Below, in pieces: positions 147 through 39,056 of a DNA stretch of 44,021 bases (position 1 is the first letter of the stretch; each line of letters opens with the position of its first letter). Location of the stretch: sequence record MN158213.1. The stretch is one strand, 5' to 3'. Below the pieces are notes generated by a model. That model saw only the letters and a program-made list of their open reading frames with translations, had not been told where the DNA came from and did not search any database. The DNA is from Escherichia phage BEK2-2. The position numbers were made by a program, and so were the translations under genes.

Positions 147-330
147 CGGGACAGGCGGGACGTCCCGTTTTGTCCCGCCCCTCAAAAGTGAATGGCTATG
201 CGGTTTTTCTGCATAAAGTAAGCGGGACAAAAAGCGGGACAAACAGGAGGCGGGACAAAGCGGGACAGCACCCCTGTCCCAGTCAGTGCTGCCGCTGGTT
301 TTAGCCGATCGGGACAGGCGGGACAAAGCC
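147..330. repeat. GGGACA iteron-like array, copy A (direct and inverted GCGGGACA units, including palindromes GGGACGTCCC and GGGACAG-N5-CTGTCCC)
   Basis: Read directly: at least 8 direct and 3 inverted GGGAC(A/G) units within about 180 bp; homologous to 27722-27828. Confidence 0.7.
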
Positions 331-384
331 CAGTCTTTCAGACTAGACGGGGGTCAATGGCCCCCCTCGTCTGAGACTGAATAA
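331..384. promoter_or_regulatory. Conserved 54 bp imperfect hairpin element, copy A (cagtctttcagactagacgggggtcaatggcccccctcgtctgagactgaataa)
   Basis: Identical to 27829-27882; arms agacggggg / cccccctcgtct can pair, nested inside agtct/agact arms. Confidence 0.6.
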
Positions 385-447
385 GGTTTGTTTTAAATTC
401 GCTGATACAATGACCGACGGCAACTGCATAAAAAGGGGGACTGCATA

Positions 448-13700: not shown

Positions 13701-13722
13701 GCAACCAACCTATTGGTTGCAA
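13701..13722. promoter_or_regulatory. Perfect palindrome TGCAACCAA-N4-TTGGTTGCA (operator-like)
   Basis: Read directly; member of the recurrent TGCAACCAAT motif family. Confidence 0.5.
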
Positions 13723-14401: not shown

Positions 14402-14867
14402 GGAGTTCTCCTTCGCTCATTATTTCAATTTGTGCGCTGCCGATTGGTGGCGCTTCGTCAAATATTATCAATTGCTGGCATTTGTTATTGCTCGGCCCGA
14501 CTTCACCGGTGACGGCGTGAATGAATCTAATCCGCCAGTCCAGAAGAATTATCAGGTTTGCAGTCTTCCGGGCCAACTTCGCCCACTTCGTCGACGTGTC
14601 CTGATTCAGTAGCATGACAGTCCGTCGTCCGTGCGCAGCGCACTCTACCCACGGCAGCGGATCGGAATACGGTGGATTGCACCACTTCCACCCTTTCAAC
14701 TCCGCCCAGTCAACATCAAGCGCGCTGTGTTCCGCCGTGAAGTAACGCGGGAGCAGGTGGTTGGCATCGCTTGCAGCCATATCGTAACGGAATCGGTACT
14801 TCCGACGAAGCGGTTTAAATAAAGCTGGCGGCGTGCGCCAGCTATCTTTTTGCTCACTCTTCTGCAT
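14382..14867 (-). CDS. dam: Phage-type DNA N6-adenine methyltransferase (Dam family)
   Basis: N-terminal DSWRTPPALF and catalytic NPPY (WCNPPYS) motifs. Confidence 0.85.
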   Translation of the reverse strand: MQKSEQKDSWRTPPALFKPLRRKYRFRYDMAASDANHLLPRYFTAEHSALDVDWAELKGWKWCNPPYSDPLPWVECAAHGRRTVMLLNQDTSTKWAKLARKTANLIILLDWRIRFIHAVTGEVGPSNNKCQQLIIFDEAPPIGSAQIEIMSEGELLEYLNR

Positions 14868-14965
14868 GGTCGGTGTCTATCGCATAAAGTGGAGTCTTAC
14901 CTCCTTTATTGATGCCGCGCTGCACGCGCTTTGCTTCTTCGACACTAAGCGGACGCACGTACGCC

Positions 14966-15226
14966 TCAGCGCGCTTGCAATGCTCGCGCAGACCTTCGGC
15001 AGTGATGCGGTTTAGTGCAACGCTGGTTGTATAATCCGGTGCGCTGCATAATCCCCATCAATTCGAAAAGCAGTTCGAAGCGCTCCTCTAATTCCTTGCG
15101 CATCTTCTCCTCGCCTTCATAGCTTGCCAGGTAGGTATCAGCCAGCGCGTTCGCCCGTTCGGCTTGCTCTCGGGCTTCGAGGCATTGCGCGGCCCAGTAA
15201 TTTTTCTCTTCTTGTAAAATTTTCAT
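14966..15226 (-). CDS. Hypothetical coiled-coil protein
   Basis: Glu/Arg-rich helical ORF; true C-terminus uncertain. Confidence 0.35.
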   Translation of the reverse strand: MKILQEEKNYWAAQCLEAREQAERANALADTYLASYEGEEKMRKELEERFELLFELMGIMQRTGLYNQRCTKPHHCRRSARALQAR

Positions 15227-24955: not shown

Positions 24956-25285
24956 ATGAATATCAAAGAAGCAATTGAAGTGTTATCTAATGCAATCCGC
25001 GGCGAAGCGGGTAAATCCTGGTATTACACAAATGCGGTGGATACTCTGTTATTTGAAGTGTCCAGATTATCGCGTGCTGAGAAGGAGCTTACCGCGAAGC
25101 TGGAATTGCTCAACGGCACGGCAGCAAGCAAGCTGCAAAAACACAATGAAGAAATGGAAGAATACAAAAAGCAGGTTATCCGTTTACGCAATGAGGGAAA
25201 GTCATGGGCAATGATCGCCGAGTTGACCGGAATTAATCAGAGCACAGTGCGCTCCTGGGTACGCAATAATAAAACTTCAAAGTAA
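24956..25285 (+). CDS. Putative HTH transcriptional regulator
   Basis: C-terminal helix-turn-helix-like segment SWAMIAELTGINQSTVRSWVRNN; first gene of the rightward early operon. Confidence 0.55.
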   Translation: MNIKEAIEVLSNAIRGEAGKSWYYTNAVDTLLFEVSRLSRAEKELTAKLELLNGTAASKLQKHNEEMEEYKKQVIRLRNEGKSWAMIAELTGINQSTVRSWVRNNKTSK

Positions 25286-25295
25286 GGCAACGGCA

Positions 25296-27560
25296 ATGAG
25301 CTTGATTAAATTCGCTGTAACACGACCCGCTAAAAAAGGCGAAAAAGCCAGGGCGGAAAACTTCCAGATGAGTACCGAAGAGTTTTTCGAATTTATCAAT
25401 GATGCGAAAGAAATCTCCTCGGTGCATATCAACAAAACGGAAGATAAAGCGGAGTATGCGCGCCGCAAGCGTAAGGCTGATGGGATTGTGGCTTATACCA
25501 GTGACGGATTACGCCGCAAGACCAGTGCGGTGGACCGCTCGATCCTGTTCTTCGATATTGACCGTACCGACACCCGCACCCTACGCCGCTGCCGTAAGGC
25601 TTTCATCGACGCGGGGCTGGAGCACGTATTCCACACAACCACCGGCGACCGTCACCCGCTTAAGGGCGGAACGCGTTGCGCTCGCTTCCTGGTACTCACT
25701 GACAAGCCTGTACCGGCTGAAGACCTGGGCCGTGTCCAGTATGCGCTATTACACCAACTTGGCCTGTCAGATGTGGACTTCGACGATTGCACGAAAGACA
25801 CAAACCGCCTGATGTACCTGCCACACCAGCAGTCTGTTATTAAATGCCATTACGGAAAGCGCGCCCGTGTCCGTCGTCTGCTTCGCCTGGCCGATAAGCT
25901 GGGAATGGAAAAAGAGGAAGTACGACGAGAACTGACCCAGGGCGATAACGGCGTGGCGGACGGTATTCTGGATTGGTGCTTCCAGGCGGGATTCGAACCG
26001 CTGTCGTCCGGTCGTGGTTATGAAGTGCCATGCCCGAACGAACACCTGCACAGTGGTGAAGGGTCCACCGCTATCATGGTTAAGGATGGCGAGATCCGTT
26101 TCAAGTGTATGCACACCGGCAACGAGTGTTGCTCGGAGCTAAATAGACACCAGCACCTTGCGCTACGCCTCATCGGGATACCGGACCACCTGAACGTCGA
26201 ACCGCACAACATGTCACGTAAGCAAATCGCCGCCATCCTCCCAGGGCTGGACGACGAGGAAGTCGAATCCTTATATGAACATATTGTTGATGCGGTTGGC
26301 GACGGCGAAGAATACGGCGTGTGCACCGATGCGGATCTGGATAACGAGCCGGTTGCGCTGTTCAGTAAGCACGACCCGATTATCGAGGGGTTGGTTAACT
26401 TTAAATCAACCTGGTATATGGCGGGTGAGTCGAACATCGGTAAATCGTTCTACGTGCTGGGGCAAATGGGTGCGGTTGCCGCGGGGATTCCGTTCGGTGG
26501 CGCGAAGGTCGTCCAGTCTCATTGCTTCTATTTCGACGCGGAAGGTGGCGAAGCCTCCAACCAGCGTAAGGAAGCATTGCAGATTAAATATGAGCACGAC
26601 CTGGACAAGCTGCACATTATCGATCTGCAATCACGCGGCTGGGATATCACCAGCAAATCCGGCTTGCGTGAAGTTATCAGCTTCATCAACCGCACCGCTA
26701 ACGGCGAGCCGGTTGGCCTGGTGGCGTTCGACTCACTCAACCAGACTGTTGCGCTGCGGTCCGCCGATGCTAAACCGTTCGACGAGAACAACGCCAGCGA
26801 TATGGGTGAAGTGGTCAAGGCGCTGAAGGCCATTGCGGAAAATACAGGCGGCAGTGCGGGCGTCATCCACCACCCGGCGAAGGGTGCAAACGGCAGCAGA
26901 TCTCCCCGTGGGTCCGGCGCGCTGCATGGCGCTGTCGATTCTGCGTTCTTCCTGGAGCAACCGGACGACAATCAGCCGGGCCAATTGAACCTGTATCACG
27001 AAAAGGCACGTAACGGCATCAAGCAAGCGCCGCGCGGCTTCGTCCTGCTCAAGTGCAAGGTTAAGGTGGATCTCCGCAAGTCCGAAGCGTTCGAATCACA
27101 CCAGTCCACCAGCATCGGGCCTGACTTCGGCGACGTGGTTGCCGGTTGGGACGTCAAGCCAATTGCATCCACGCCACGCGACGAGACTCTTTATCTCGTA
27201 CCGGTCGCCCTGGCACCGTTCGCCATCGAACAGGCAAAGGCCGCGGGCAAGGCCGCAGTTAAGGATGAGAACGCCGCAGGACCGCGCAACGAAAAAGAGA
27301 AAGTTCTTTATGCGGCACTGGAAAAACTGATGGAAGATAACCCGGACCATACCGGATTCAGTAAATCGGCAATTGTCCGCCAGGCTGGACTTGCGAAAGG
27401 TGGCACATCGACGAAGGCAATAGACGATATGGTGGAGCGCGGCGTGCTCGGTTTTTATACAGATCCGCACACCGGGGCCATCTATGGGTCGTCGAATATC
27501 GTCATCAAAACGAATATACCCATCACGCTTTCTGCGACCGACGATGACCTGAAAGATTAA
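25296..27560 (+). CDS. DNA primase/helicase (prim-pol-like N-terminus plus RecA-fold helicase)
   Basis: N-terminal FFDIDR (DxD); C-terminal Walker A GESNIGKS and Walker B-like VGLVAFDSLNQ. Confidence 0.7.
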   Translation: MSLIKFAVTRPAKKGEKARAENFQMSTEEFFEFINDAKEISSVHINKTEDKAEYARRKRKADGIVAYTSDGLRRKTSAVDRSILFFDIDRTDTRTLRRCRKAFIDAGLEHVFHTTTGDRHPLKGGTRCARFLVLTDKPVPAEDLGRVQYALLHQLGLSDVDFDDCTKDTNRLMYLPHQQSVIKCHYGKRARVRRLLRLADKLGMEKEEVRRELTQGDNGVADGILDWCFQAGFEPLSSGRGYEVPCPNEHLHSGEGSTAIMVKDGEIRFKCMHTGNECCSELNRHQHLALRLIGIPDHLNVEPHNMSRKQIAAILPGLDDEEVESLYEHIVDAVGDGEEYGVCTDADLDNEPVALFSKHDPIIEGLVNFKSTWYMAGESNIGKSFYVLGQMGAVAAGIPFGGAKVVQSHCFYFDAEGGEASNQRKEALQIKYEHDLDKLHIIDLQSRGWDITSKSGLREVISFINRTANGEPVGLVAFDSLNQTVALRSADAKPFDENNASDMGEVVKALKAIAENTGGSAGVIHHPAKGANGSRSPRGSGALHGAVDSAFFLEQPDDNQPGQLNLYHEKARNGIKQAPRGFVLLKCKVKVDLRKSEAFESHQSTSIGPDFGDVVAGWDVKPIASTPRDETLYLVPVALAPFAIEQAKAAGKAAVKDENAAGPRNEKEKVLYAALEKLMEDNPDHTGFSKSAIVRQAGLAKGGTSTKAIDDMVERGVLGFYTDPHTGAIYGSSNIVIKTNIPITLSATDDDLKD

Positions 27561-27670
27561 ATCCAGCGCGCATTGGTTGCCGATATGGGGATTCCCATAT
27601 CGCTAAAAGGTTAAATCCTGCGCGCATTGGTTGCCATTTTTAGTGTTTTTATCCGGTCGTATTGGTTGCC
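27557..27670. repeat. Direct repeats ttaaatccWgcgcgcattggttgcc (two copies plus a third partial) flanking palindrome gatatggg-N-cccatatc
   Basis: Read directly, immediately after the primase/helicase stop codon. Confidence 0.6.
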
Positions 27671-27721
27671 GTGTAGTGTGAATACAGTGAATAGTTATGC
27701 AATAAAACTGCATAAACCAAA

Positions 27722-27828
27722 CGGGACAGAAAGCGGGACAAACATGGGGCGGGACAAAGCGGGACAGCACCCCCGTCCCGCCCCGGATGGCGCGGCCTGG
27801 CGGGGAGCGGGACAAGCGGGACAAACCC
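27722..27828. repeat. GGGACA iteron-like array, copy B
   Basis: Direct GGGACA units and palindrome GGGACAGCACCCCCGTCCC; homologous to copy A at 147-330. Confidence 0.7.
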
Positions 27829-27882
27829 CAGTCTTTCAGACTAGACGGGGGTCAATGGCCCCCCTCGTCTGAGACTGAATAA
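27829..27882. promoter_or_regulatory. Conserved 54 bp imperfect hairpin element, copy B
   Basis: Identical to 331-384. Confidence 0.6.
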
Positions 27883-28037
27883 AATCCGGAGATTGCAAAA
27901 CACACGGCAGCATGATACGAAGTGCGGTCGTCTACTAACTAGGCAACCAATGCGGGTTGTATTATGCTGAGTGAAAAATGCGGTTTGCAGCCACAGCAGA
28001 TAGCGATCAACTTTTTCATGCGCGTGATTAATATTGG

Positions 28038-28066
28038 TTGCGTCCACCCCGGCACCAGGCTATATT
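28038..28066 (+). promoter_or_regulatory. Putative promoter TTGCGT-N17-TATATT overlapping two ATTGGTTGC motifs
   Basis: Read directly; 28 bp upstream of the 28095 gene. Confidence 0.35.
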
Positions 28067-28094
28067 GGTTGCACACCAACATGAGGACTGAACA

Positions 28095-28400
28095 ATGAAA
28101 GCATTAATCTGGAATTACACAATGGCGGTGGCGAAGCTGTATGAAGCGAAGCACACAGACGGCAACGCAGACGACGCGCGCCAGGTTGTCATCCTGGCCC
28201 AGCAGGGAATCATGCACGCGTTCGACGATATGTTTGCCAGTCTGGACGAACTGGAACCGCTGCGCGTGGCAATCTGCGAATATGCGATGGCTTTTGCCCG
28301 CGAGCGCCTGGCGTATCGCTTCGGGATCGGTGAGACGGCAGTAACAAACGTCGCCCGGATTAAAGCCCAGCGCGAACTATTCGCCCAGCTTGCGAAATAA
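28095..28400 (+). CDS. Hypothetical early protein
   Basis: ATG with GAGGA site; 101 aa. Confidence 0.55.
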   Translation: MKALIWNYTMAVAKLYEAKHTDGNADDARQVVILAQQGIMHAFDDMFASLDELEPLRVAICEYAMAFARERLAYRFGIGETAVTNVARIKAQRELFAQLAK

Positions 28401-28409
28401 GGGGCAAAA

Positions 28410-28679
28410 ATGGACCGCAGACGAGCTAAACGGCTTTCCTGGAGCATTACCCTGCATTGCATACGAATATGGGCTAAGAATGCGAATGAGGGCGATTCTG
28501 TGTTCTGGAGCTATCGCGACGATGTGAAGCCATTAACGCAGACTCGCTACTTGCACCAGTTCGCCAGGGAGCATGGGTTAGCCATAAAAACGTCCTTGCA
28601 ACCAATTGGCGTTCGTATTACATTACGCCGGAAGCCTGCCGTTGAGCGGGTAGGCAAACACTGGAGACTGAGCAAATGA
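28410..28679 (+). CDS. Hypothetical basic early protein
   Basis: ATG with AAGGGG site; tightly packed in the operon. Confidence 0.5.
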   Translation: MDRRRAKRLSWSITLHCIRIWAKNANEGDSVFWSYRDDVKPLTQTRYLHQFAREHGLAIKTSLQPIGVRITLRRKPAVERVGKHWRLSK

Positions 28680-28885
28680 CACCAATGCAAAAAACACTAA
28701 TGGAGGGATTCTCGCAGGAGTTTATCGACCTGGAATCCTGCCACGACGACTACAAGCATTACGGCATCGCTACGGTATGCGACGGCGACAACCTTACCGC
28801 CGACGAGATCGACGAAAGCGAATGCAACCACGACCACCAGCAAGAAATCATCGTGTGCGACAAGTGCGGCACGGTTAAACTTTAA
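28676..28885 (+). CDS. Small acidic Cys-rich (zinc-ribbon-like) protein
   Basis: SCHDD...VCDG...ECNHD...VCDKCG; start overlaps the upstream stop. Confidence 0.5.
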   Translation: MTPMQKTLMEGFSQEFIDLESCHDDYKHYGIATVCDGDNLTADEIDESECNHDHQQEIIVCDKCGTVKL

Positions 28886-28898
28886 AGGAGACAGAGCA

Positions 28899-29423
28899 AT
28901 GAAATTACTATTACGCCGTAAGCACGATGGTCGCATCCTGAAGCCGATCCAGACCCTGGATTCCTACGTCCGCTTACAAAACGCGGCAGGCAATCGGGTG
29001 TGGCGGGCGCCGAAACACACGCTGCCGCAGTTCTTCGACGTACTCACACATGATATTGAGCGCGGCGATGTGCTGCGTGATATTCGCGACGGGCAGCTAT
29101 GGGTCGTGGAGCACACCCACCAGCACGGCTTGCGGTTGAAGTCCGGCATCTTGTTGAAGGGGATGACTTACTTCGGGCTAATCCACTTTGAACGAGTGGG
29201 GCGCAAATACCTCCTTCGCGACCGCCAGCCGCATGAGCGCGCTACTTACGACGCGACCCAGGTGCAATCTAAAATTCGCCAGGCGACGCATGAGATTATT
29301 AATCGCTTTGATGCCGTGACGAATGCGCAGCGCCATGCGCAGGAATACGGCGTTGGATTCATCCGGGTAGAACGAGACGGCAGCATGAACGCCATTGACC
29401 CGCGCTCGGTGATTCTGAAATGA
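28899..29423 (+). CDS. Hypothetical early protein
   Basis: 174 aa with GGAG site. Confidence 0.55.
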   Translation: MKLLLRRKHDGRILKPIQTLDSYVRLQNAAGNRVWRAPKHTLPQFFDVLTHDIERGDVLRDIRDGQLWVVEHTHQHGLRLKSGILLKGMTYFGLIHFERVGRKYLLRDRQPHERATYDATQVQSKIRQATHEIINRFDAVTNAQRHAQEYGVGFIRVERDGSMNAIDPRSVILK

Positions 29424-29642
29424 GTGCGGCTATCCGTGATATGCTGATGCACAACCGCTTTGAGATCGGCGGTCGGGTGTTTCGCAATTACTTCGTGGCG
29501 CGTGCCTGGGCGCGCCATATTGGCAAACCAGAGGGGGCAATACGATGCTACACGTCTTCGCGGTAGTATGTGGCGGTAGTCTGGCGGCCCTGGTGCTGTT
29601 GGCGTCGGTTATTAGTCTGGTTAAATACCTATGGGGCAGATT

Positions 29643-29930
29643 ATGATTCATGATGTGATTTATTGGTTTGGTTTGATCTGCGGGCTATGCCTGCGTACCG
29701 CGGTGCTGTTGGGCATCCTGATGTTCGTCGTATGGCCTGCAGTGGAGGCCGCCAGTATTACCCGCATGACGTTCGAGGTATACAAGCGCCACGGGGTCAC
29801 GGAGCACCCGACCAGGTTGCGCATGTGGTGGCTGTGGTATCGGGATATGATAGGCGGGCGAACATTCGAAGCCGTCCGGTCGAGTGGATGGGAGTGGAAA
29901 GGCGTCGGCAAGTGGTCCATTTTCGATTAA
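29643..29930 (+). CDS. Small membrane protein
   Basis: Hydrophobic N-terminal half; start placed at MIHDVIYW (ORF track begins at 29631). Two shorter upstream ORFs (29420-29566, 29544-29645) are below the track cutoff. Confidence 0.4.
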   Translation: MIHDVIYWFGLICGLCLRTAVLLGILMFVVWPAVEAASITRMTFEVYKRHGVTEHPTRLRMWWLWYRDMIGGRTFEAVRSSGWEWKGVGKWSIFD

Positions 29931-29947
29931 TTATGCAAGCGTGATAT

Positions 29948-29982
29948 AGTCCCAGTGAGATAAAACTTACTGGGACTTTTTT
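29948..29982 (+). terminator. Intrinsic terminator-like hairpin just upstream of the holin gene
   Basis: Hairpin agtcccagtgagataaaacttactgggact followed by TTTTTT. Confidence 0.5.
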
Positions 29983-30273
29983 ATGGATAAGCTAAACGAG
30001 TGGTTATTCGCCCTCGCGTGCCTTGCAGGTGGCTTTGTTGGCGCCCGCATTCACGGCGAGGCTACGAAAGGGCCGCTAAACTTCGTTTTATATATCGTGG
30101 TCGGCTTCTTGTGTGCCGTTTTTGGCGCTCCAGCGATTGCCGAGTGGGCTGGCTTATCTGGCGAGCGCACTGTCGCCGGTTTGGGCTTCGTAACTGCTAT
30201 CTTCTGGATGCCAATAGCCGCCCGGATCAGGGAGACTATTGAGTCGTTCCGACTTCCGGGGGGCGCAAAATGA
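29983..30273 (+). CDS. Holin (multi-pass membrane protein)
   Basis: 96 aa with hydrophobic helices; immediately upstream of the lysozyme gene. Confidence 0.6.
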   Translation: MDKLNEWLFALACLAGGFVGARIHGEATKGPLNFVLYIVVGFLCAVFGAPAIAEWAGLSGERTVAGLGFVTAIFWMPIAARIRETIESFRLPGGAK

Positions 30274-30515
30274 TTATCTCCGTCCTGTTGTTTGTTATCA
30301 TAGGGGCTTCGTCCCTGTTTAACGTGTATGCGCCGTCCGTCCAGGATGGCATTTTAGGCCGGGTGTTATATCTGCTAACGGCAATGATCTGCGTTATCGG
30401 ATTATTGCAAACAGGAGACGTATCTGACACCACCTGGACCGCGTTAATCTGGCTGTTTGCATTGCGCACGCTGCGTAATGCTGTTTTGAATGGGGTAAAA
30501 CATGCGATTCAGTGA
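30270..30515 (+). CDS. Second small membrane protein (holin or antiholin partner)
   Basis: 81 aa with two hydrophobic segments; overlaps neighbours in the lysis cassette. Confidence 0.45.
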   Translation: MIISVLLFVIIGASSLFNVYAPSVQDGILGRVLYLLTAMICVIGLLQTGDVSDTTWTALIWLFALRTLRNAVLNGVKHAIQ

Positions 30516-30993
30516 TAACGGTCTAAGATTTACGGCAGCATGGGAGACGTTCAGCCCAGTGCCGTATTTCGCGACTAAGAAAGAGCAGGCCCGCGGCCTG
30601 TACACCTGGGGCTATGGTCACACCGGCACTAACCCGCCTCGAAGCATTACCCGAGAGGAAGCGCTGGCGCTACTCAAGCGCGATGTGGCGTATGCCGAGG
30701 CTTGGGTGAATAAATACGCACATCCGAGCATTAACCAGGCGCAATTCGACGCGCTGGTGGACCTGGTTATCAATGCCGGTAATGGCCCGATCGTACCGGA
30801 TAACATCGCGAACGATTTCGATGATGCGGTGCGCCTGGGTGACTGGGCGAAGGTCCGAGCTACGCTGCCACAGTTCCGCAAGCAAGGCGGGGAAGTGCTG
30901 AAGGGGCTAGTCCGTCGAGCAATCGGCAGGCAAGCGCTATTCGACGGTAAGCAGTGGGACGTTGCCGAGAAAATCGGACGTAACGCAGCATAA
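30502..30993 (+). CDS. Endolysin, GH24 phage lysozyme (P22 gp19 / T4 E-like)
   Basis: Matches the lysozyme core by eye: catalytic Glu in AAWETF, GYGHTG, INQAQFDALVDLVINAG. Confidence 0.88.
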   Translation: MRFSDNGLRFTAAWETFSPVPYFATKKEQARGLYTWGYGHTGTNPPRSITREEALALLKRDVAYAEAWVNKYAHPSINQAQFDALVDLVINAGNGPIVPDNIANDFDDAVRLGDWAKVRATLPQFRKQGGEVLKGLVRRAIGRQALFDGKQWDVAEKIGRNAA

Positions 30994-31009
30994 TACGGAG
31001 TAACACAGT

Positions 31010-31417
31010 ATGCTAAAAAGTATTCTTGATCATAACGCCGACGCGCTCGCCGCGCTGGCTAAAACCAAAGACCCAGGCGCACGCGCTATTGTAGCGGATA
31101 CGATCAGCCATGCGGGGGTCTTCGACGCGAAGTTACCCAGCCCGCCGGAAAGTAAGCCGGTGACAAGTGCAACCGTAACTATCACACCGGAATCCGCCGC
31201 AGTTGGTGCGAAGGCCACCGCTTCGGTTGCGGTACAGCCATCCGACGCAACTAACAAGGCCGGGTCGTGGGTGTCGTCTAATCCTGCCTGCGCGGCAATC
31301 GATCAGACTACCGGAGAAATCACAGCCCAAACGGAAGGTGGCGCCCACATCTTTTGGGTGGCATCCGACGGCAGCGGGGTGCTAGCGTCCGCCATCTTCA
31401 CCGTAACGAGAGCATAA
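31010..31417 (+). CDS. Ig-like (Big_2-type) domain protein
   Basis: Ser/Thr/Ala-rich beta-type C-terminal half resembling bacterial Ig-like domains; follows the endolysin gene. Confidence 0.45.
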   Translation: MLKSILDHNADALAALAKTKDPGARAIVADTISHAGVFDAKLPSPPESKPVTSATVTITPESAAVGAKATASVAVQPSDATNKAGSWVSSNPACAAIDQTTGEITAQTEGGAHIFWVASDGSGVLASAIFTVTRA

Positions 31418-36402: not shown

Positions 36403-37489
36403 TCAATATATGGCGGATCGAATGATTCGCCGTCACATCTTCACCCAGCGCCTGAGCAATGACCAGGCGCGACGGGTGCTGGCTATGTGGGAGAAGTTCC
36501 GGCCCACTTTACTTGGTAAGCTGACCGAGTTACTTGATGGCAAAAAGTCCATGAGCAACAAGGCACTTACCACACTGTTAACTCAAATCGACAAGACCGT
36601 CAAAACGGAACTGCGCGCAGAGTTTAAAGTGCTGGCGGAGAGCCTTCAGGAGTTCGCCGACACCGAGGCTGATTATCTCGCGGACACATTAACGGCAGCG
36701 ATCCAGCCCGCGGTCGCTGTGCCTGCGGTCGAAGTAGTGGGCGTTGTGACCGGCGCGCAGATTGCCGCGACTGCAATGAAAAACCCGTTCCAGGGGAACA
36801 CCATGATGCAATGGCCTGATTCACTTTCAGAGTGGACCAGGACGCAGATCGGCAATCAGGTGCGCGCTGGATTCATCCAGGGCAAGCCGACTATGGAAAT
36901 TATTGCGGACGTGAGGCGCGCGCTAGGCGGTCGTAGTGCGCAAGCAATCTCAAGCGTTGTTAAGTCCGCAGTCAACCACTATGCGGCGACCGCCCGCGAA
37001 CTAATGGTAAAAGCAAATGACGATATTCTCGAAGGTCGCCAATGGTTATCTACATTGGACACGCATACTTCTCCCATGTGCCAGCTACGCGATCGCCTGT
37101 TTTATCCGGTTGATGTTACTCCCGACACCAAAGGCAAGCGCGGCGGGAAAGTGGTGGCGGGATCACAATATGGCGCTGGTCCGGGCAAGTTGCATTATTG
37201 CTGCCGGTCGACGGAGACGTGGAAAGTCAAAGGTATGGAAGATTGGCCCAGTGGTAAGCGTCCGGCACTGAAGGCTGACGCGGGCCGTTTACTGAGTGAG
37301 CAGGTCGACGCGCAGACTGATTTCTTCTCATGGGTGCAGCGCCAGCCGCGCCATATCCTGGAAGAATTATACGGGGTGCAGCGCGCGGACCAGATTATGC
37401 GCGGCGTGAAAGTGCCGAAGATGTTCACCGACACCGGCGAACTAATGACGATTGCGCAGCTTAAAAATCGGGGGTTATGGCGTGATTAA
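36386..37489 (+). CDS. Head morphogenesis protein (SPP1 gp7 / Mu F-like)
   Basis: 367 aa gene directly after portal. Confidence 0.6.
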   Translation: MAKTINQYMADRMIRRHIFTQRLSNDQARRVLAMWEKFRPTLLGKLTELLDGKKSMSNKALTTLLTQIDKTVKTELRAEFKVLAESLQEFADTEADYLADTLTAAIQPAVAVPAVEVVGVVTGAQIAATAMKNPFQGNTMMQWPDSLSEWTRTQIGNQVRAGFIQGKPTMEIIADVRRALGGRSAQAISSVVKSAVNHYAATARELMVKANDDILEGRQWLSTLDTHTSPMCQLRDRLFYPVDVTPDTKGKRGGKVVAGSQYGAGPGKLHYCCRSTETWKVKGMEDWPSGKRPALKADAGRLLSEQVDAQTDFFSWVQRQPRHILEELYGVQRADQIMRGVKVPKMFTDTGELMTIAQLKNRGLWRD

Positions 37490-37790
37490 ATACGCAGCGA
37501 TCGGGTTGGTTATCGGCCTGGCGGTTGGCTTCTGGCTGGGTGATTCCTACCGTGCAGGTGTTGAGGCGAGAGCGGCGCAAGAAGCGCAAGCGAAAGCCCA
37601 ACGGCAGCAAACTAAGGTCGTCGAGGGGTCTGTGCAGGCAGAACAGGCCCGCGATGTGGAATACAGGACTATCACGAAAGAGGTTGTGAAATATGTTACG
37701 CGTCCTAACCGTACTGATTGCCGTTTTGATGATGAGCGCGTGCGGATCAAGCAAAGGGCCATCGATGCCGCTAACCGAGTCGGTCTATAG
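37482..37790 (+). CDS. Putative i-spanin (Rz-like)
   Basis: N-terminal transmembrane segment AAIGLVIGLAVGFWLG then charged helical region; GTG start with GGGGG site; contains the overlapping lipoprotein gene. Confidence 0.5.
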   Translation: MIKYAAIGLVIGLAVGFWLGDSYRAGVEARAAQEAQAKAQRQQTKVVEGSVQAEQARDVEYRTITKEVVKYVTRPNRTDCRFDDERVRIKQRAIDAANRVGL

Positions 37791-38741: not shown

Positions 38742-39056
38742 TTAGTTAAACTTGATGTCTCCACCGGCGGAAGTTAAGCGAGCGCATACAGCTTCAACGG
38801 CATCAACGCACATGAAATCGTTAAAGGCTTTGACCAGGGCGTTGATGAAAGATGCCGGAACCAGACCGCAAGCCGGATTATCAAAGGTCGCGGAATTGAT
38901 TGCAGCCTTCGCTGCTTCATTAGCGTTCATGCTCTGGCACAGATTCAGAGCTTCGGCGTTACGCATTGCGTGAAAGGTGAAGGTATTGGCTACGGTAGCT
39001 TTATTGAAACGGGTCATTGCTACGTCTACTGGAGTTACTACGGTCATGTTAGTCAT
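38742..39056 (-). CDS. Hypothetical protein, first gene of the reverse accessory cassette
   Basis: Start placed at MTNMTVV with AAGGA site (ORF track extends to 39107). Confidence 0.5.
   Translation of the reverse strand: MTNMTVVTPVDVAMTRFNKATVANTFTFHAMRNAEALNLCQSMNANEAAKAAINSATFDNPACGLVPASFINALVKAFNDFMCVDAVEAVCARLTSAGGDIKFN

What the first reader, a model, noticed from the sequence alone, without database searches (positions are those of the whole stretch)
28095..29930. Block of small early genes of unknown function, including an acidic Cys4 zinc-ribbon protein and small membrane proteins
Directly downstream of the putative origin is a tightly packed set of small genes (101, 89, 69 and 174 aa, plus two sub-60-aa ORFs at 29420-29566 and 29544-29645 and a 95 aa membrane protein), none with a recognisable enzymatic motif. 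This is the typical location and architecture of host-takeover or anti-defence genes. The 69 aa acidic protein with four Cys pairs resembles small zinc-binding inhibitors of host enzymes.
Basis: inference. Interest (0 to 1): 0.45.

Follow-up and report, generated by a model that had tools for sequence, protein, structure and literature searches.

The report
Variable small-gene block in a Dhillonvirus coliphage
This is a real, tightly packed operon of seven small phage genes of unknown function that sits between the replication and lysis genes of an E. coli Dhillonvirus; several of them vary much more between related phages than their neighbours do and can be lost, so they look like accessory host-interaction genes, but nothing here shows what they do.

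Summary
The window is the whole genome of an E. coli Dhillonvirus (Escherichia phage BEK2-2). The seven ORFs at 28095-29930 are real genes. All are conserved in about 150 related genomes, have dN/dS below 1, and most have a Shine-Dalgarno site or an ATGA stop/start overlap.

They form one unit. A conserved sigma70-like promoter lies upstream, overlapped by a genome-wide 9-mer (ATTGGTTGC), and a strong conserved terminator lies 6 nt before the holin gene.

None matches a Pfam, NCBIfam, PADLOC or PDB family. PHROGs lists them all as "unknown function".

Flanking genes are 93-100% identical among relatives, but:
- A (56-99%), C (49-100%, absent in about a third) and D (35-92%, often truncated) are hypervariable and mosaic.
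- F is a roughly 98-nt indel present in about half the genomes.
- B, E and the soluble domain of G are conserved.
- G's family extends to about 300 Jerseyvirus genomes.
- Phage Teewinot lacks D' through G, so these are dispensable.

The "Cys4 zinc ribbon" is not supported. The 69-aa protein has 5 Cys and one CxxC, and the Cys-rich tail occurs in only about 10% of homologs.

The anti-defence or host-takeover reading is plausible for A, C and D but untested. The Dhillonvirus anti-Tmn (inferred from CDS numbering) and Ksap1 genes appear to map outside this block. Ordinary phage dark matter; modest interest.

The parts
28038..28066 (+). Sigma70-like promoter candidate for the block: TTGCGT (28038-28043), 17-nt spacer, TATATT (28061-28066). 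Both hexamers overlap copies of the 9-mer ATTGGTTGC (28033-28041 and 28064-28072).
   Evidence: Read from the sequence. The hexamers and the 17-nt spacing are conserved while the spacer sequence varies in the relatives whose promoter lies directly upstream of gene A; Opt212 carries a deletion spanning it. The same 20-nt element TATATTGGTTGCACACC[A/G]ACA precedes a minus-strand gene near 39047, where the scan tool calls TTGCAA-18-TATATT a promoter. The 9-mer occurs 15 times against 0.43 expected. Function is inferred, not shown.
28095..28400 (+). Gene A, 101 aa, phrog_9839 (unknown function). All-alpha protein with conserved ends and a hypervariable centre.
28410..28679 (+). Gene B, 89 aa, very basic (pI 11.4), phrog_12533 (unknown function). 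Present in every relative examined.
   Evidence: 156 records, 60-95% identity. dN/dS 0.18. No PDB or Pfam match. Its stop overlaps the start of C (ATGA).
28676..28885 (+). Gene C, 69 aa, acidic (pI 4.2). A long allele of the ~50-aa phrog_15977 family, with a rare C-terminal Cys/His tail (C50-x-H52 ... C61-x-x-C64).
   Evidence: The PHROG match covers only aa 4-49. Found in 101 records, but only 10 cover at least 80% of the protein. The alignment shows only C22 and C35 conserved, and the gene is absent from 8 of the 22 non-redundant relatives compared. dN/dS 0.20.
28899..29423 (+). Gene D, 174 aa, basic (pI 10.3), phrog_10243. Two modules: an N-terminal beta-rich part and a C-terminal ~55-aa part that also occurs alone (phrog_27442). 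A linker of 0, 10 or 30 aa joins them.
   Evidence: 155 records at 35-92% identity. Truncated, split or domain-swapped in JL1, BF9, CS16, JohannBuxtorf and Teewinot. Only 22 representatives among 1.84 billion proteins. AF2 model is poor (pLDDT 48). dN/dS 0.33 with raised dS.
29420..29566 (+). Gene E, 48 aa (46 aa in many relatives), basic (pI 11.2), phrog_13628. The most conserved gene of the block.
   Evidence: 151 records, all at least 80% identical. dN/dS 0.09. ATGA overlap with the stop of D. An HTH-like segment aligns to lambda NinH, but without statistical support (hhalign probability 0.5%).
29545..29646 (+). Gene F, 33 aa, a single hydrophobic helix. Lies in a roughly 98-nt insertion present in 10 of the 22 compared loci (9 of the 20 non-redundant relatives that reach this region).
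   Evidence: GGGGG Shine-Dalgarno site. Its stop overlaps the G start at 29643 (ATGA). The JohannBuxtorf copy is 70% identical with only hydrophobic-for-hydrophobic changes. dN/dS 0.29. Annotated in GeorgBuechner and SM_S22.
29643..29930 (+). Gene G, 95 aa (99 aa if started at 29631), phrog_2531. An N-terminal membrane anchor with a variable sequence, then a conserved Trp-rich basic domain carrying the motifs WPAVEAxSxxR and GRxFEAxR...W.W..VGKW.
   Evidence: Found in 478 phage records, including 302 Salmonella phages (Jerseyvirus where checked) and Klebsiella and Erwinia phages. In the two Jerseyviruses examined it lies after the lysin and next to a NinH-like gene. Elsewhere it lies between the terminase and portal genes. 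Deleted in Teewinot.
29948..29983 (+). Intrinsic terminator closing the block: a 12-bp stem, a 6-nt loop and a T6 run that continues into the holin ATG at 29983.
   Evidence: Scan hit. RNA fold -24 kcal/mol, z = -7.1. Identical or nearly so in the 20 non-redundant relatives that reach this region, with a paired CCCC/GGGG insertion in LM40P1.
29942..29950 (+). Extended -10-like element TGATATAGT overlapping the 5' arm of the terminator. It is a candidate promoter for the lysis cassette: its transcripts would start inside the stem and so escape termination.
   Evidence: Read from the sequence and conserved in relatives. An RNA starting at 29955 folds at only -3.5 kcal/mol. This is inference only, and the pattern is not enriched genome-wide.
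27561..28094 (.). Upstream non-coding region. Contains six ATTGGTTGC sites (27572, 27626, 27661, 27943 on the minus strand, 28033, 28064), five GCGGGACA iterons (27733-27823) and a 56-nt hairpin (27829-27877).
   Evidence: The layout is conserved in all relatives. The iteron-plus-hairpin part is a second copy of window ~207-386.

Best explanation
The block is a self-contained accessory operon of a Dhillonvirus. Seven small, mostly genus-specific genes are probably transcribed by host RNA polymerase from a promoter of the same type that precedes the phage's replication and DNA-modification operons. That makes them early or middle genes, and transcription stops at a strong terminator just before the holin gene.

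The genes are translated largely as coupled pairs (B-C, D-E, F-G share ATGA stop/start overlaps). They fall into two classes.

1. Fast-evolving, mosaic, optional cytoplasmic proteins. These are A (a four-helix protein whose second helix and flanking loops are hypervariable), C (a small acidic protein), D (a two-module basic protein), and alternative small ORFs in a slot upstream of A. I take them to bind variable host factors, with host-defence or host-takeover targets the most likely.

2. Conserved small proteins. B and E are very basic and most simply read as nucleic-acid- or protein-binding modulators. G, with the optional F, is an inner-membrane protein with a conserved Trp-rich domain, and its family is shared with Jersey-like phages.

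At least D, E, F and G are dispensable for plaque formation.

Shown here: coding status, operon boundaries at sequence level, the conservation and variability pattern, dispensability, and absence of known domains. Inferred: expression timing, host-directed function, nucleic-acid binding and membrane topology.
For: - Identity of the phage: megablast gives 158 Dhillonvirus records at 80-95% identity, and P0001 shows the window is phage BEK2-2.
- Coding: dN/dS 0.09-0.44 for all seven genes. Shine-Dalgarno sites and ATGA overlaps are present.
- Variability against flanks: helicase 97-99% (83-92% in HK578 and LM40P1), holins 93-100% and lysin 93-96% (about 70% in LM40P1), but A 56-99%, C 49-100% or absent, and D 35-92% or truncated. 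dN is about ten-fold higher and dS is raised for C and D.
- Alleles assort independently. For example, the window's A is closest to UAE_MI-01 and CS16, its D to SO-1, and its G to GeorgBuechner and slur05.
- The slot between promoter and A carries different small ORFs in different phages.
- Dispensability: Teewinot (41.8 kb) lacks most of D, all of E and F, and most of G. Natural D::G deletion fusions exist, P0274 and P0276.
- Operon boundaries: conserved promoter elements, and a terminator at -24 kcal/mol with a compensatory change in LM40P1.
- Same promoter type as other non-structural operons, including the one directly upstream of the anti-Tmn homolog at 14857-15226.
- ORFan status.
- A's confident model shows that the variable residues map to helix 2 and its adjoining loops.
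Against: - No experiment, homology or structural match ties any of the seven proteins to a host target or a defence system.
- B, E and most of G are conserved rather than variable. That fits a housekeeping or regulatory role better than an arms race.
- The promoter is weak by consensus (8 of 12) and was not called by the scan tool. There is no transcript data for any Dhillonvirus in the literature searched.
- A limited proteomics study of a relative, which detected only four phage proteins in infected cells, listed no hypothetical protein of matching size; the CDS numbers were not mapped to the block.
- High divergence of A, C and D could also reflect relaxed constraint plus recombination rather than selection by host factors.
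Confidence: 0.5

Rival explanations
1. A nin-like region. The genes would be accessory modulators of the phage's own DNA transactions or gene expression, such as replication helpers or regulators of late transcription, rather than host-directed factors. This would resemble the non-essential nin genes between lambda's replication genes and Q and the lysis genes.
For: - Position between the primase-helicase plus iteron region and the lysis cassette.
- B, D and E are strongly basic, with pI 10.3-11.4.
- A and B are present in every relative examined.
- E's C-terminal segment ARHIGKPEGAIRCY lines up with the helix-turn-helix of lambda NinH, ARRLKCSRGTVRKY.
- In the two Jerseyviruses examined, an annotated NinH-like gene sits immediately upstream of the G homolog.
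- The lysis cassette has no obvious strong promoter of its own, so some regulator of read-through or late initiation must exist.
Against: - The E-NinH profile comparison is not significant (probability 0.5%, E = 0.12), and Pfam's NinH model does not hit E.
- E is deleted in Teewinot.
- Hypervariability of A, C and D is not expected for factors that act on the phage's own conserved machinery.
- A better regulator candidate exists outside the block: the 109-aa HTH protein at 24956-25285.
Confidence: 0.25
2. The membrane proteins F and G belong functionally to the lysis cassette (antiholin, lysis-timing regulator or spanin-like), or act as superinfection-exclusion proteins at the inner membrane. 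On this reading the rest of the block is unrelated.
For: - G and F each have a transmembrane segment as hydrophobic as those of the two holins.
- G ends 53 nt upstream of the holin start.
- The G family stays close to the lysis and terminase genes in the two Jerseyviruses examined, where it is followed by another small two-TM ORF.
- The transmembrane segment of G is allelic while its soluble domain is conserved. That pattern is compatible with interaction with variable membrane partners.
Against: - A strong, conserved terminator separates G from the holins.
- Neither F nor G matches the PHROG holin or spanin families, whereas the two downstream genes do.
- An Rz-like spanin is encoded elsewhere, at 37452-37790.
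- Gene order relative to the lysis genes is not conserved: upstream in Dhillonvirus, downstream in Jerseyvirus, and far away in other contigs.
- Teewinot lacks G and still forms plaques.
- There is no test of exclusion.
Confidence: 0.15
3. Some or all of the small ORFs are annotation artefacts in a non-coding spacer.
For: - E (48 aa) and F (33 aa) are very short and overlap each other.
- F gives no PHROG hit.
- Several ORFs annotated in relatives across the iteron and promoter region look spurious.
Against: - dN/dS is well below 1 for every one of the seven, including E (0.09) and F (0.29).
- Substitutions in F are hydrophobic-for-hydrophobic.
- Ribosome-binding sites or ATGA coupling are present.
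- Reading frames are conserved across about 150 genomes.
Confidence: 0.02

Closest known systems
Lambda nin region (ninB-ninI, between replication genes O/P and Q and the lysis genes)
   Same: A run of small, tightly packed, partly overlapping and largely non-essential genes. It lies between the replication module and the lysis cassette on the same strand, and lysis expression is gated by a terminator (for the lambda layout; for the window).
   Different: There is no sequence homology. The only hint, E against NinH, is not significant. No Q-like antiterminator, Rap, Orf or phosphatase homolog is in the block. The block has its own promoter and ends at a terminator rather than leading into Q.
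Dhillonvirus anti-Tmn protein (phage SM_S22 ORF35; PMC11846954)
   Same: A small protein almost confined to Dhillonvirus (the paper reports one homolog in Skarprettervirus). Its activity depends on small allelic differences, and it is preceded by the same ATTGGTTGC-type promoter.
   Different: It is encoded in the minus-strand module. The window's homolog is at 14857-15226 and is frameshifted. It has no similarity to A-G. Its function is shown by experiment, whereas none is shown for A-G.
PHROG families phrog_9839, 12533, 15977, 10243, 13628 and 2531
   Same: A, B, C, D, E and G match these families at E-values from 1e-19 to 1e-89.
   Different: All are labelled "unknown function". C's match covers only aa 4-49, so the Cys-rich tail lies outside the family. 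F matches none.
Small zinc-ribbon or zinc-knuckle proteins (Cys4)
   Same: The window's C allele ends in C-x-H-x8-C-x-x-C. Together these could supply four zinc ligands (Cys3His).
   Different: There is only one CxxC knuckle and no second Cys pair. The tail is absent from about 90% of homologs. There is no significant match to any zinc-ribbon family: Pfam gives nothing, and the best PDB sequence hit has E = 0.32.
Phage inner-membrane superinfection-exclusion proteins and antiholins (for example T4 Imm, HK97 gp15, lambda S107). Named from general knowledge, not tested here.
   Same: Small size, an N-terminal transmembrane anchor, and location close to the lysis genes.
   Different: No homology was detected. 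A terminator separates G from the holins. Topology and phenotype are unknown.

Membership tests
Cys4 zinc ribbon (protein C) | Two CxxC (or CPxC) knuckles supplying four Cys ligands | tested here: not met
   The sequence has C22, C35, C50, C61 and C64, and only C61-x-x-C64 forms a knuckle.
Cys4 zinc ribbon (protein C) | Metal ligands conserved across homologs | tested here: not met
   Only C22 and C35 are conserved. The Cys/His tail is present in 3 of 15 aligned sequences (the window plus two relatives), and only 10 of 101 records cover at least 80% of the protein.
Cys4 zinc ribbon (protein C) | Zinc actually bound | not testable with these tools
   This needs metal analysis of purified protein. 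A Cys3His site (C50, H52, C61, C64) in the rare long allele is not excluded.
Known anti-defence or host-takeover protein families | Sequence or fold homology to a characterised inhibitor | tested here: not met
   No significant hits in Pfam, NCBIfam, PADLOC, PHROGs (function-annotated families) or PDB sequences. A's model has no informative fold match. No similarity to anti-Tmn. No dedicated anti-defence protein library was available.
Known anti-defence or host-takeover protein families | Accessory behaviour: variable, optional and mosaic among close relatives | tested here: met
   Met for A, C, D, F and the slot upstream of A. Not met for B, E or the soluble domain of G.
Known anti-defence or host-takeover protein families | Host-directed phenotype (inhibits a defence system or a host enzyme) | not testable with these tools
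   None of the papers searched or read reports one for these genes.
Early gene class | Transcribed before the late and lysis genes, from a host-RNAP promoter | tested here: inconclusive
   A conserved TTGCGT-17-TATATT element of the same type precedes the non-structural operons, and a terminator precedes the holin. There are no transcript data.
Lambda NinH family (protein E) | Significant profile similarity to NinH (Fis-like HTH) | tested here: not met
   hhalign probability 0.5%, E = 0.12, over 14 columns. No Pfam NinH hit.
Cro or HTH DNA-binding proteins (protein A) | Compact helix-turn-helix fold, or a domain hit above threshold | tested here: not met
   The Cro and HTH_Tnp_4 hits have E = 0.1-0.17, far below their cut-offs. 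The AF2 model (pLDDT 96) shows four long helices, and no DNA-binding fold appears among the top matches.
Holin, antiholin or spanin (proteins F and G) | Match to a lysis protein family and co-transcription with the endolysin | tested here: not met
   PHROG holin families hit only the two downstream genes. The spanin is at 37452-37790. A terminator separates G from the holin. Gene order is not conserved in the Jerseyviruses examined.
Intrinsic (rho-independent) terminator, 29948-29983 | GC-rich stem-loop followed by a U-run, and conserved | tested here: met
   12-bp stem, T6 run, -24 kcal/mol, z = -7.1. Conserved, with a compensatory insertion in LM40P1. Termination itself was not measured.
PHROG unknown-function families of Dhillonvirus | Full-length HMM match | tested here: met
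   A, B, D, E and G match end to end at E-values from 1e-35 to 1e-89. C matches partially. F does not match.

The most novel reading that the evidence does not exclude
At least one of the hypervariable proteins is a previously unrecognised counter-defence or host-takeover factor whose allelic diversity sets which E. coli strains each Dhillonvirus can infect. The candidates are A (a confidently predicted four-helix protein with no informative structural relative and a hypervariable second helix), the translationally coupled basic/acidic pair B-C, and the two-module D. Alternatively or in addition, the widely conserved G family (about 480 phage genomes, including most of the Jerseyviruses sampled) is a new class of inner-membrane phage protein, for example a superinfection-exclusion or injection-blocking protein.
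Probability: 0.3. Interest if true: 0.55.

Novelty: new member of a known kind. Interest (0 to 1): 0.3.

Why it matters
Dhillonviruses are among the most commonly isolated coliphages. They belong to reference collections such as BASEL and are used in defence-system and phage-therapy work, yet this roughly 1.8-kb block is annotated only as "hypothetical" in about 150 genomes.

This analysis shows which genes of the block are fast-evolving and optional (A, C, D, F) and which are conserved (B, E, G). It also delimits the transcription unit. Together these give a short, ranked list for deletion and allele-swap experiments aimed at host-range and counter-defence determinants.

If one of them proved to be an inhibitor of a defence system, it would be directly useful for engineering therapeutic phages, as was done with anti-Tmn. 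As it stands, the finding is typical phage dark matter, not a surprise.

Tried and rejected
1. Domain searches of all seven proteins against Pfam, NCBIfam, PADLOC and PHROGs gave nothing beyond unknown-function PHROGs.
2. Sequence and profile searches against PDB chains for A, B, C, D and G gave nothing significant.
3. Large-database searches for D, A and G found only Dhillonvirus-type contigs, except two distant G homologs. A full HMM scan of 1.84 billion representatives with the D profile gave 22 hits, all within the same family or fragments of it.
4. The AF2 model of D is too poor to use (pLDDT 48).
6. The idea that A is Cro- or HTH-like was rejected on structure.
7. The idea that E is NinH-like was not supported.
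8. The idea that G or F is the missing spanin or part of the lysis cassette was rejected.
9. Literature on Dhillonvirus, SECphi4 and SECphi18 escape mutants, anti-Tmn, Ksap1 and RAZR places every determinant that could be located outside the block. The 56-aa SECphi4 protein lies at about 8.3 kb in that genome.
10. Proteomics of the relative EE09 listed no hypothetical protein of a size matching the block's products, but detected only four phage proteins in infected cells; its CDS numbers were not mapped to the block.
11. An Rfam scan of 27400-30100 gave only a sub-threshold chance hit on the terminator.
12. tblastn with the 33-aa F is too insensitive to count its prevalence.
13. The 44-aa ORF at 27964-28098 upstream of A, annotated in some relatives, was judged non-coding. 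It spans the promoter, whose spacer varies freely and is deleted in Opt212.
Full report
**What the window is.** Megablast of 27500-31100 finds 158 phage records, nearly all Escherichia or Shigella Dhillonvirus, at 80-95% identity. The 174-aa protein of the block is 100% identical to a protein of Escherichia phage BEK2-2 on a contig of exactly 44,021 bp. The window is therefore a complete genome of an HK578-like lytic siphovirus. In annotated relatives the finding's region lies between the replicative primase-helicase and a lysis cassette of holin, holin and endolysin. Every gene in between is labelled "hypothetical protein".

**Check of the observation.** The + strand carries seven ORFs:
- A, 28095-28400, 101 aa
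- B, 28410-28679, 89 aa
- C, 28676-28885, 69 aa
- D, 28899-29423, 174 aa
- E, 29420-29566, 48 aa
- F, 29545-29646, 33 aa
- G, 29631-29930, 99 aa

The second ATG of G, at 29643, has a GGGG Shine-Dalgarno site and overlaps the stop of F (ATGA). A, B, C, D and F have good ribosome-binding sites. B-C, D-E and F-G share ATGA stop/start overlaps.

All seven evolve under purifying selection in 10-23 compared genomes. dN/dS is A 0.44, B 0.18, C 0.20, D 0.33, E 0.09, F 0.29 and G 0.23, against 0.05-0.14 for the helicase, holins and endolysin. They are genes, not chance ORFs.

C is acidic (pI 4.2). B, D and E are basic (pI 10.3-11.4). F and G each contain a segment as hydrophobic as the holins'.

The description of C as a "Cys4 zinc ribbon" with "four Cys pairs" is wrong. 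C has five cysteines and one CxxC. In the family alignment only C22 and C35 are conserved. The C-terminal C50-x-H52...C61-x-x-C64 tail exists only in the window, UAE_MI-01 and 101114BS4 among the compared genomes. Only 10 of 101 homolog-bearing records cover at least 80% of the protein. A Cys3His knuckle in this rare long allele is possible, but it is not a property of the family.

**No recognisable family.** Pfam, NCBIfam and PADLOC give no significant hit. PHROGs places A, B, C (aa 4-49 only), D, E and G in families of unknown function, and F in none. PDB sequence and profile searches are empty.

A (117 clusters) and D (427 clusters) occur only on contigs of about 46 kb or less. An exhaustive HMM scan of 1.84 billion representatives with the D profile returns just 22 proteins, all of the same family or fragments of it.

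**Comparative pattern.** Across the 22 non-redundant relatives (24 loci fetched, two of them duplicates):
- The helicase-primase is 97-99% identical in most relatives (83-92% in HK578 and LM40P1). The holins are 93-100% and the endolysin 93-96% identical in all but the outlier LM40P1, where they are about 70%.
- A ranges from 56 to 99%.
- C ranges from 49 to 100% and is missing in 8 of 22.
- D ranges from 35 to 92%. It is truncated, split or reduced to one module in JL1, BF9, CS16, JohannBuxtorf and Teewinot.
- F lies in a roughly 98-nt insertion present in 10 of the 22 compared loci (9 of the 20 non-redundant relatives that reach this region).

Within A the variability is concentrated in residues 18-58, with 36% mean pairwise identity against 84% for residues 59-101. 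That region is helix 2 and its adjoining loops. D consists of an N-terminal module, a linker of 0, 10 or 30 residues, and a C-terminal roughly 55-residue module that also exists alone (phrog_27442).

Alleles of A, D and G assort independently between genomes, so the block is mosaic. The slot between the promoter and gene A holds different small ORFs in different phages.

Teewinot, a 41.8-kb phage isolated from raw sewage on E. coli and deposited as a complete genome, lacks most of D, all of E and F, and most of G. Metagenomic D::G fusion proteins record similar deletions. D-G are thus dispensable in culture.

G is different from the rest. Its family occurs in 478 phage records, including 302 Salmonella phages and phages of Klebsiella, Erwinia and Pectobacterium. 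The family has an invariant juxtamembrane P...A.S..R motif and a conserved C-terminal GR.FEA.R...W.W..VGKW-type motif.

**Regulatory frame.** The 535-bp region upstream contains six copies of ATTGGTTGC. This 9-mer occurs 15 times in the genome against 0.43 expected. It occurs mostly in intergenic or promoter regions of non-structural operons on both strands, with one copy inside gene B. There it overlaps the -35 (TTGCnn) and -10 (TATATT) hexamers of sigma70-like promoters.

Immediately before gene A the arrangement is TTGCGT-17-TATATT at 28038-28066. In the relatives whose promoter lies directly upstream of A, the hexamers and spacing are conserved while the spacer varies. The same 20-nt element precedes a minus-strand gene near 39047. 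A paired copy precedes the window's anti-Tmn homolog. By inference, the block belongs to the same early or middle regulatory class as the replication, modification and accessory operons.

The block ends at a 12-bp-stem terminator at 29948-29977 followed by T6 (-24 kcal/mol, z = -7.1). It is conserved in every relative that reaches this region, with a compensatory CCCC/GGGG insertion in LM40P1. The holin ATG follows directly.

A conserved TGATATAGT (extended -10) overlaps the 5' arm of the stem. Transcripts starting there could not form the hairpin (-3.5 kcal/mol). This would let a separate lysis promoter bypass the terminator. That step is conjecture.

**Literature.** None of the papers found by the searches run here assigns a function to these genes. 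The anti-Tmn protein of Dhillonvirus SM_S22 is ORF35 (PMC11846954). Taking ORF35 to be the GenBank CDS0035, whose sequence fits the described fold, it lies in the minus-strand module. Its homolog in the window is at 14857-15226 and is frameshifted. [quoted passage not shown] Escape mutations reported for SECphi4 and SECphi18 map to the SSB, the DNA polymerase, the portal and a 56-aa protein at about 8.3 kb. A proteomic study of the relative EE09 detected only four phage proteins in infected cells, and none of the hypothetical proteins it lists matches the block's products in size. It did detect the Ig-domain protein downstream of the lysin.

**Interpretation.** The best-supported reading is an accessory operon expressed before lysis. 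It has a fast-evolving, optional set (A, C, D, F and the upstream slot) that most plausibly contacts variable host factors, and a conserved set (B, E, G) with more constant tasks.

The nin-like alternative holds that these are modulators of the phage's own replication or transcription. It is kept alive by three things: position, the basic proteins, and the juxtaposition of a NinH-like gene with the G homolog in the two Jerseyviruses examined. The only sequence link, E against NinH, is not significant.

A lysis role for F and G is unlikely for four reasons. A terminator separates them from the holins. The spanin is elsewhere, at 37452-37790. Gene order is not conserved in other phages. Teewinot has lost G.

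**Verdict.** The feature is a typical, already annotated but uncharacterised accessory region of a common phage genus: of modest interest, and useful mainly as a ranked target list for experiments.

Noticed in passing
window 207-386 and 27707-27886: A roughly 180-bp direct repeat made of GCGGGACA iterons plus an identical 56-nt hairpin (CCCAGTCTTTCAGACTAGACGGGGGTCAATGGCCCCCCTCGTCTGAGACTGAATAA; -28 kcal/mol, z = -5.2). One copy lies just upstream of the tape-measure gene and the other between the primase-helicase and the block. SM_S22 has the same two copies, and both carry the same loop change (GCGG for ATGG), which implies concerted evolution. Two copies sit awkwardly with a simple single-origin reading.
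   Followed up: partly
window, 15 sites: 10518, 13712, 15282, 15299, 18241, 24757, 27572, 27626, 27661, 27943, 28033, 28064, 28598, 39086, 39100: The exact 9-mer ATTGGTTGC occurs 15 times against 0.43 expected. It occurs mostly in promoter regions of non-structural operons on both strands and overlaps -35 and -10 hexamers, so it is probably the operator of a phage regulator. One copy lies inside gene B (codons L-Q-P-I) and is kept in both B alleles. A near-palindromic pair sits at 13701-13720.
   Followed up: partly
window 24956-25285 (+): A 109-aa protein annotated "transposase" in relatives has an HTH_23 / sigma70 region-4-like helix-turn-helix above Pfam cut-offs. It sits at the divergent early promoter region and is a candidate for the factor that reads ATTGGTTGC.
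   Followed up: partly
window 14857-15226 (-): The homolog of the SM_S22 anti-Tmn protein (taking the paper's ORF35 to be GenBank CDS0035) is split between two reading frames. An 86-aa ORF at 14966-15226 is followed by a C-terminal fragment in another frame, so the gene is probably inactivated in this phage. It is the first gene downstream of a paired ATTGGTTGC promoter.
   Followed up: partly
window 37452-37790 (+): An Rz-like spanin (phrog_2536, E = 4e-36) is encoded in the head-gene region, about 7 kb away from the holin-holin-endolysin cassette.
   Followed up: no
window 31010-31417 (+): The gene after the endolysin encodes a conserved 48-aa N-terminal part fused to a Big_2 Ig-like domain. 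In many relatives only a 55-aa ORF without the Ig domain is present. The EE09 homolog was detected by mass spectrometry in lysates and in infected cells.
   Followed up: no
L001, L020, L021, L022, L016, L019, L004, L003: the region between the promoter and gene A: The promoter-proximal slot upstream of A holds at least three unrelated small ORFs in different Dhillonviruses. A 59-aa gp49-like ORF is in HK578, SO-1, SECphi4, JL1 and SM_S22. Another ORF, in frame with A, is in GeorgBuechner, JohannBuxtorf and Teewinot. A third is in CS16. The slot is empty in the window.
   Followed up: partly
P0004 (a metagenomic D homolog), C-terminus: One D variant carries a 29-aa Cys-rich extension (KCC...C-x-x-C) in place of the normal stop. 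This is a second, independent appearance of a small CxxC tail within the block.
   Followed up: no
L028 3241-3946 and L029 3112-4011 (Jerseyvirus): In these Salmonella Jerseyviruses the G homolog is flanked upstream by a NinH-like gene. In L028 the two share a stop/start overlap, and a 60-aa two-TM ORF follows downstream. This resembles the order E, (F), G in Dhillonvirus.
   Followed up: partly
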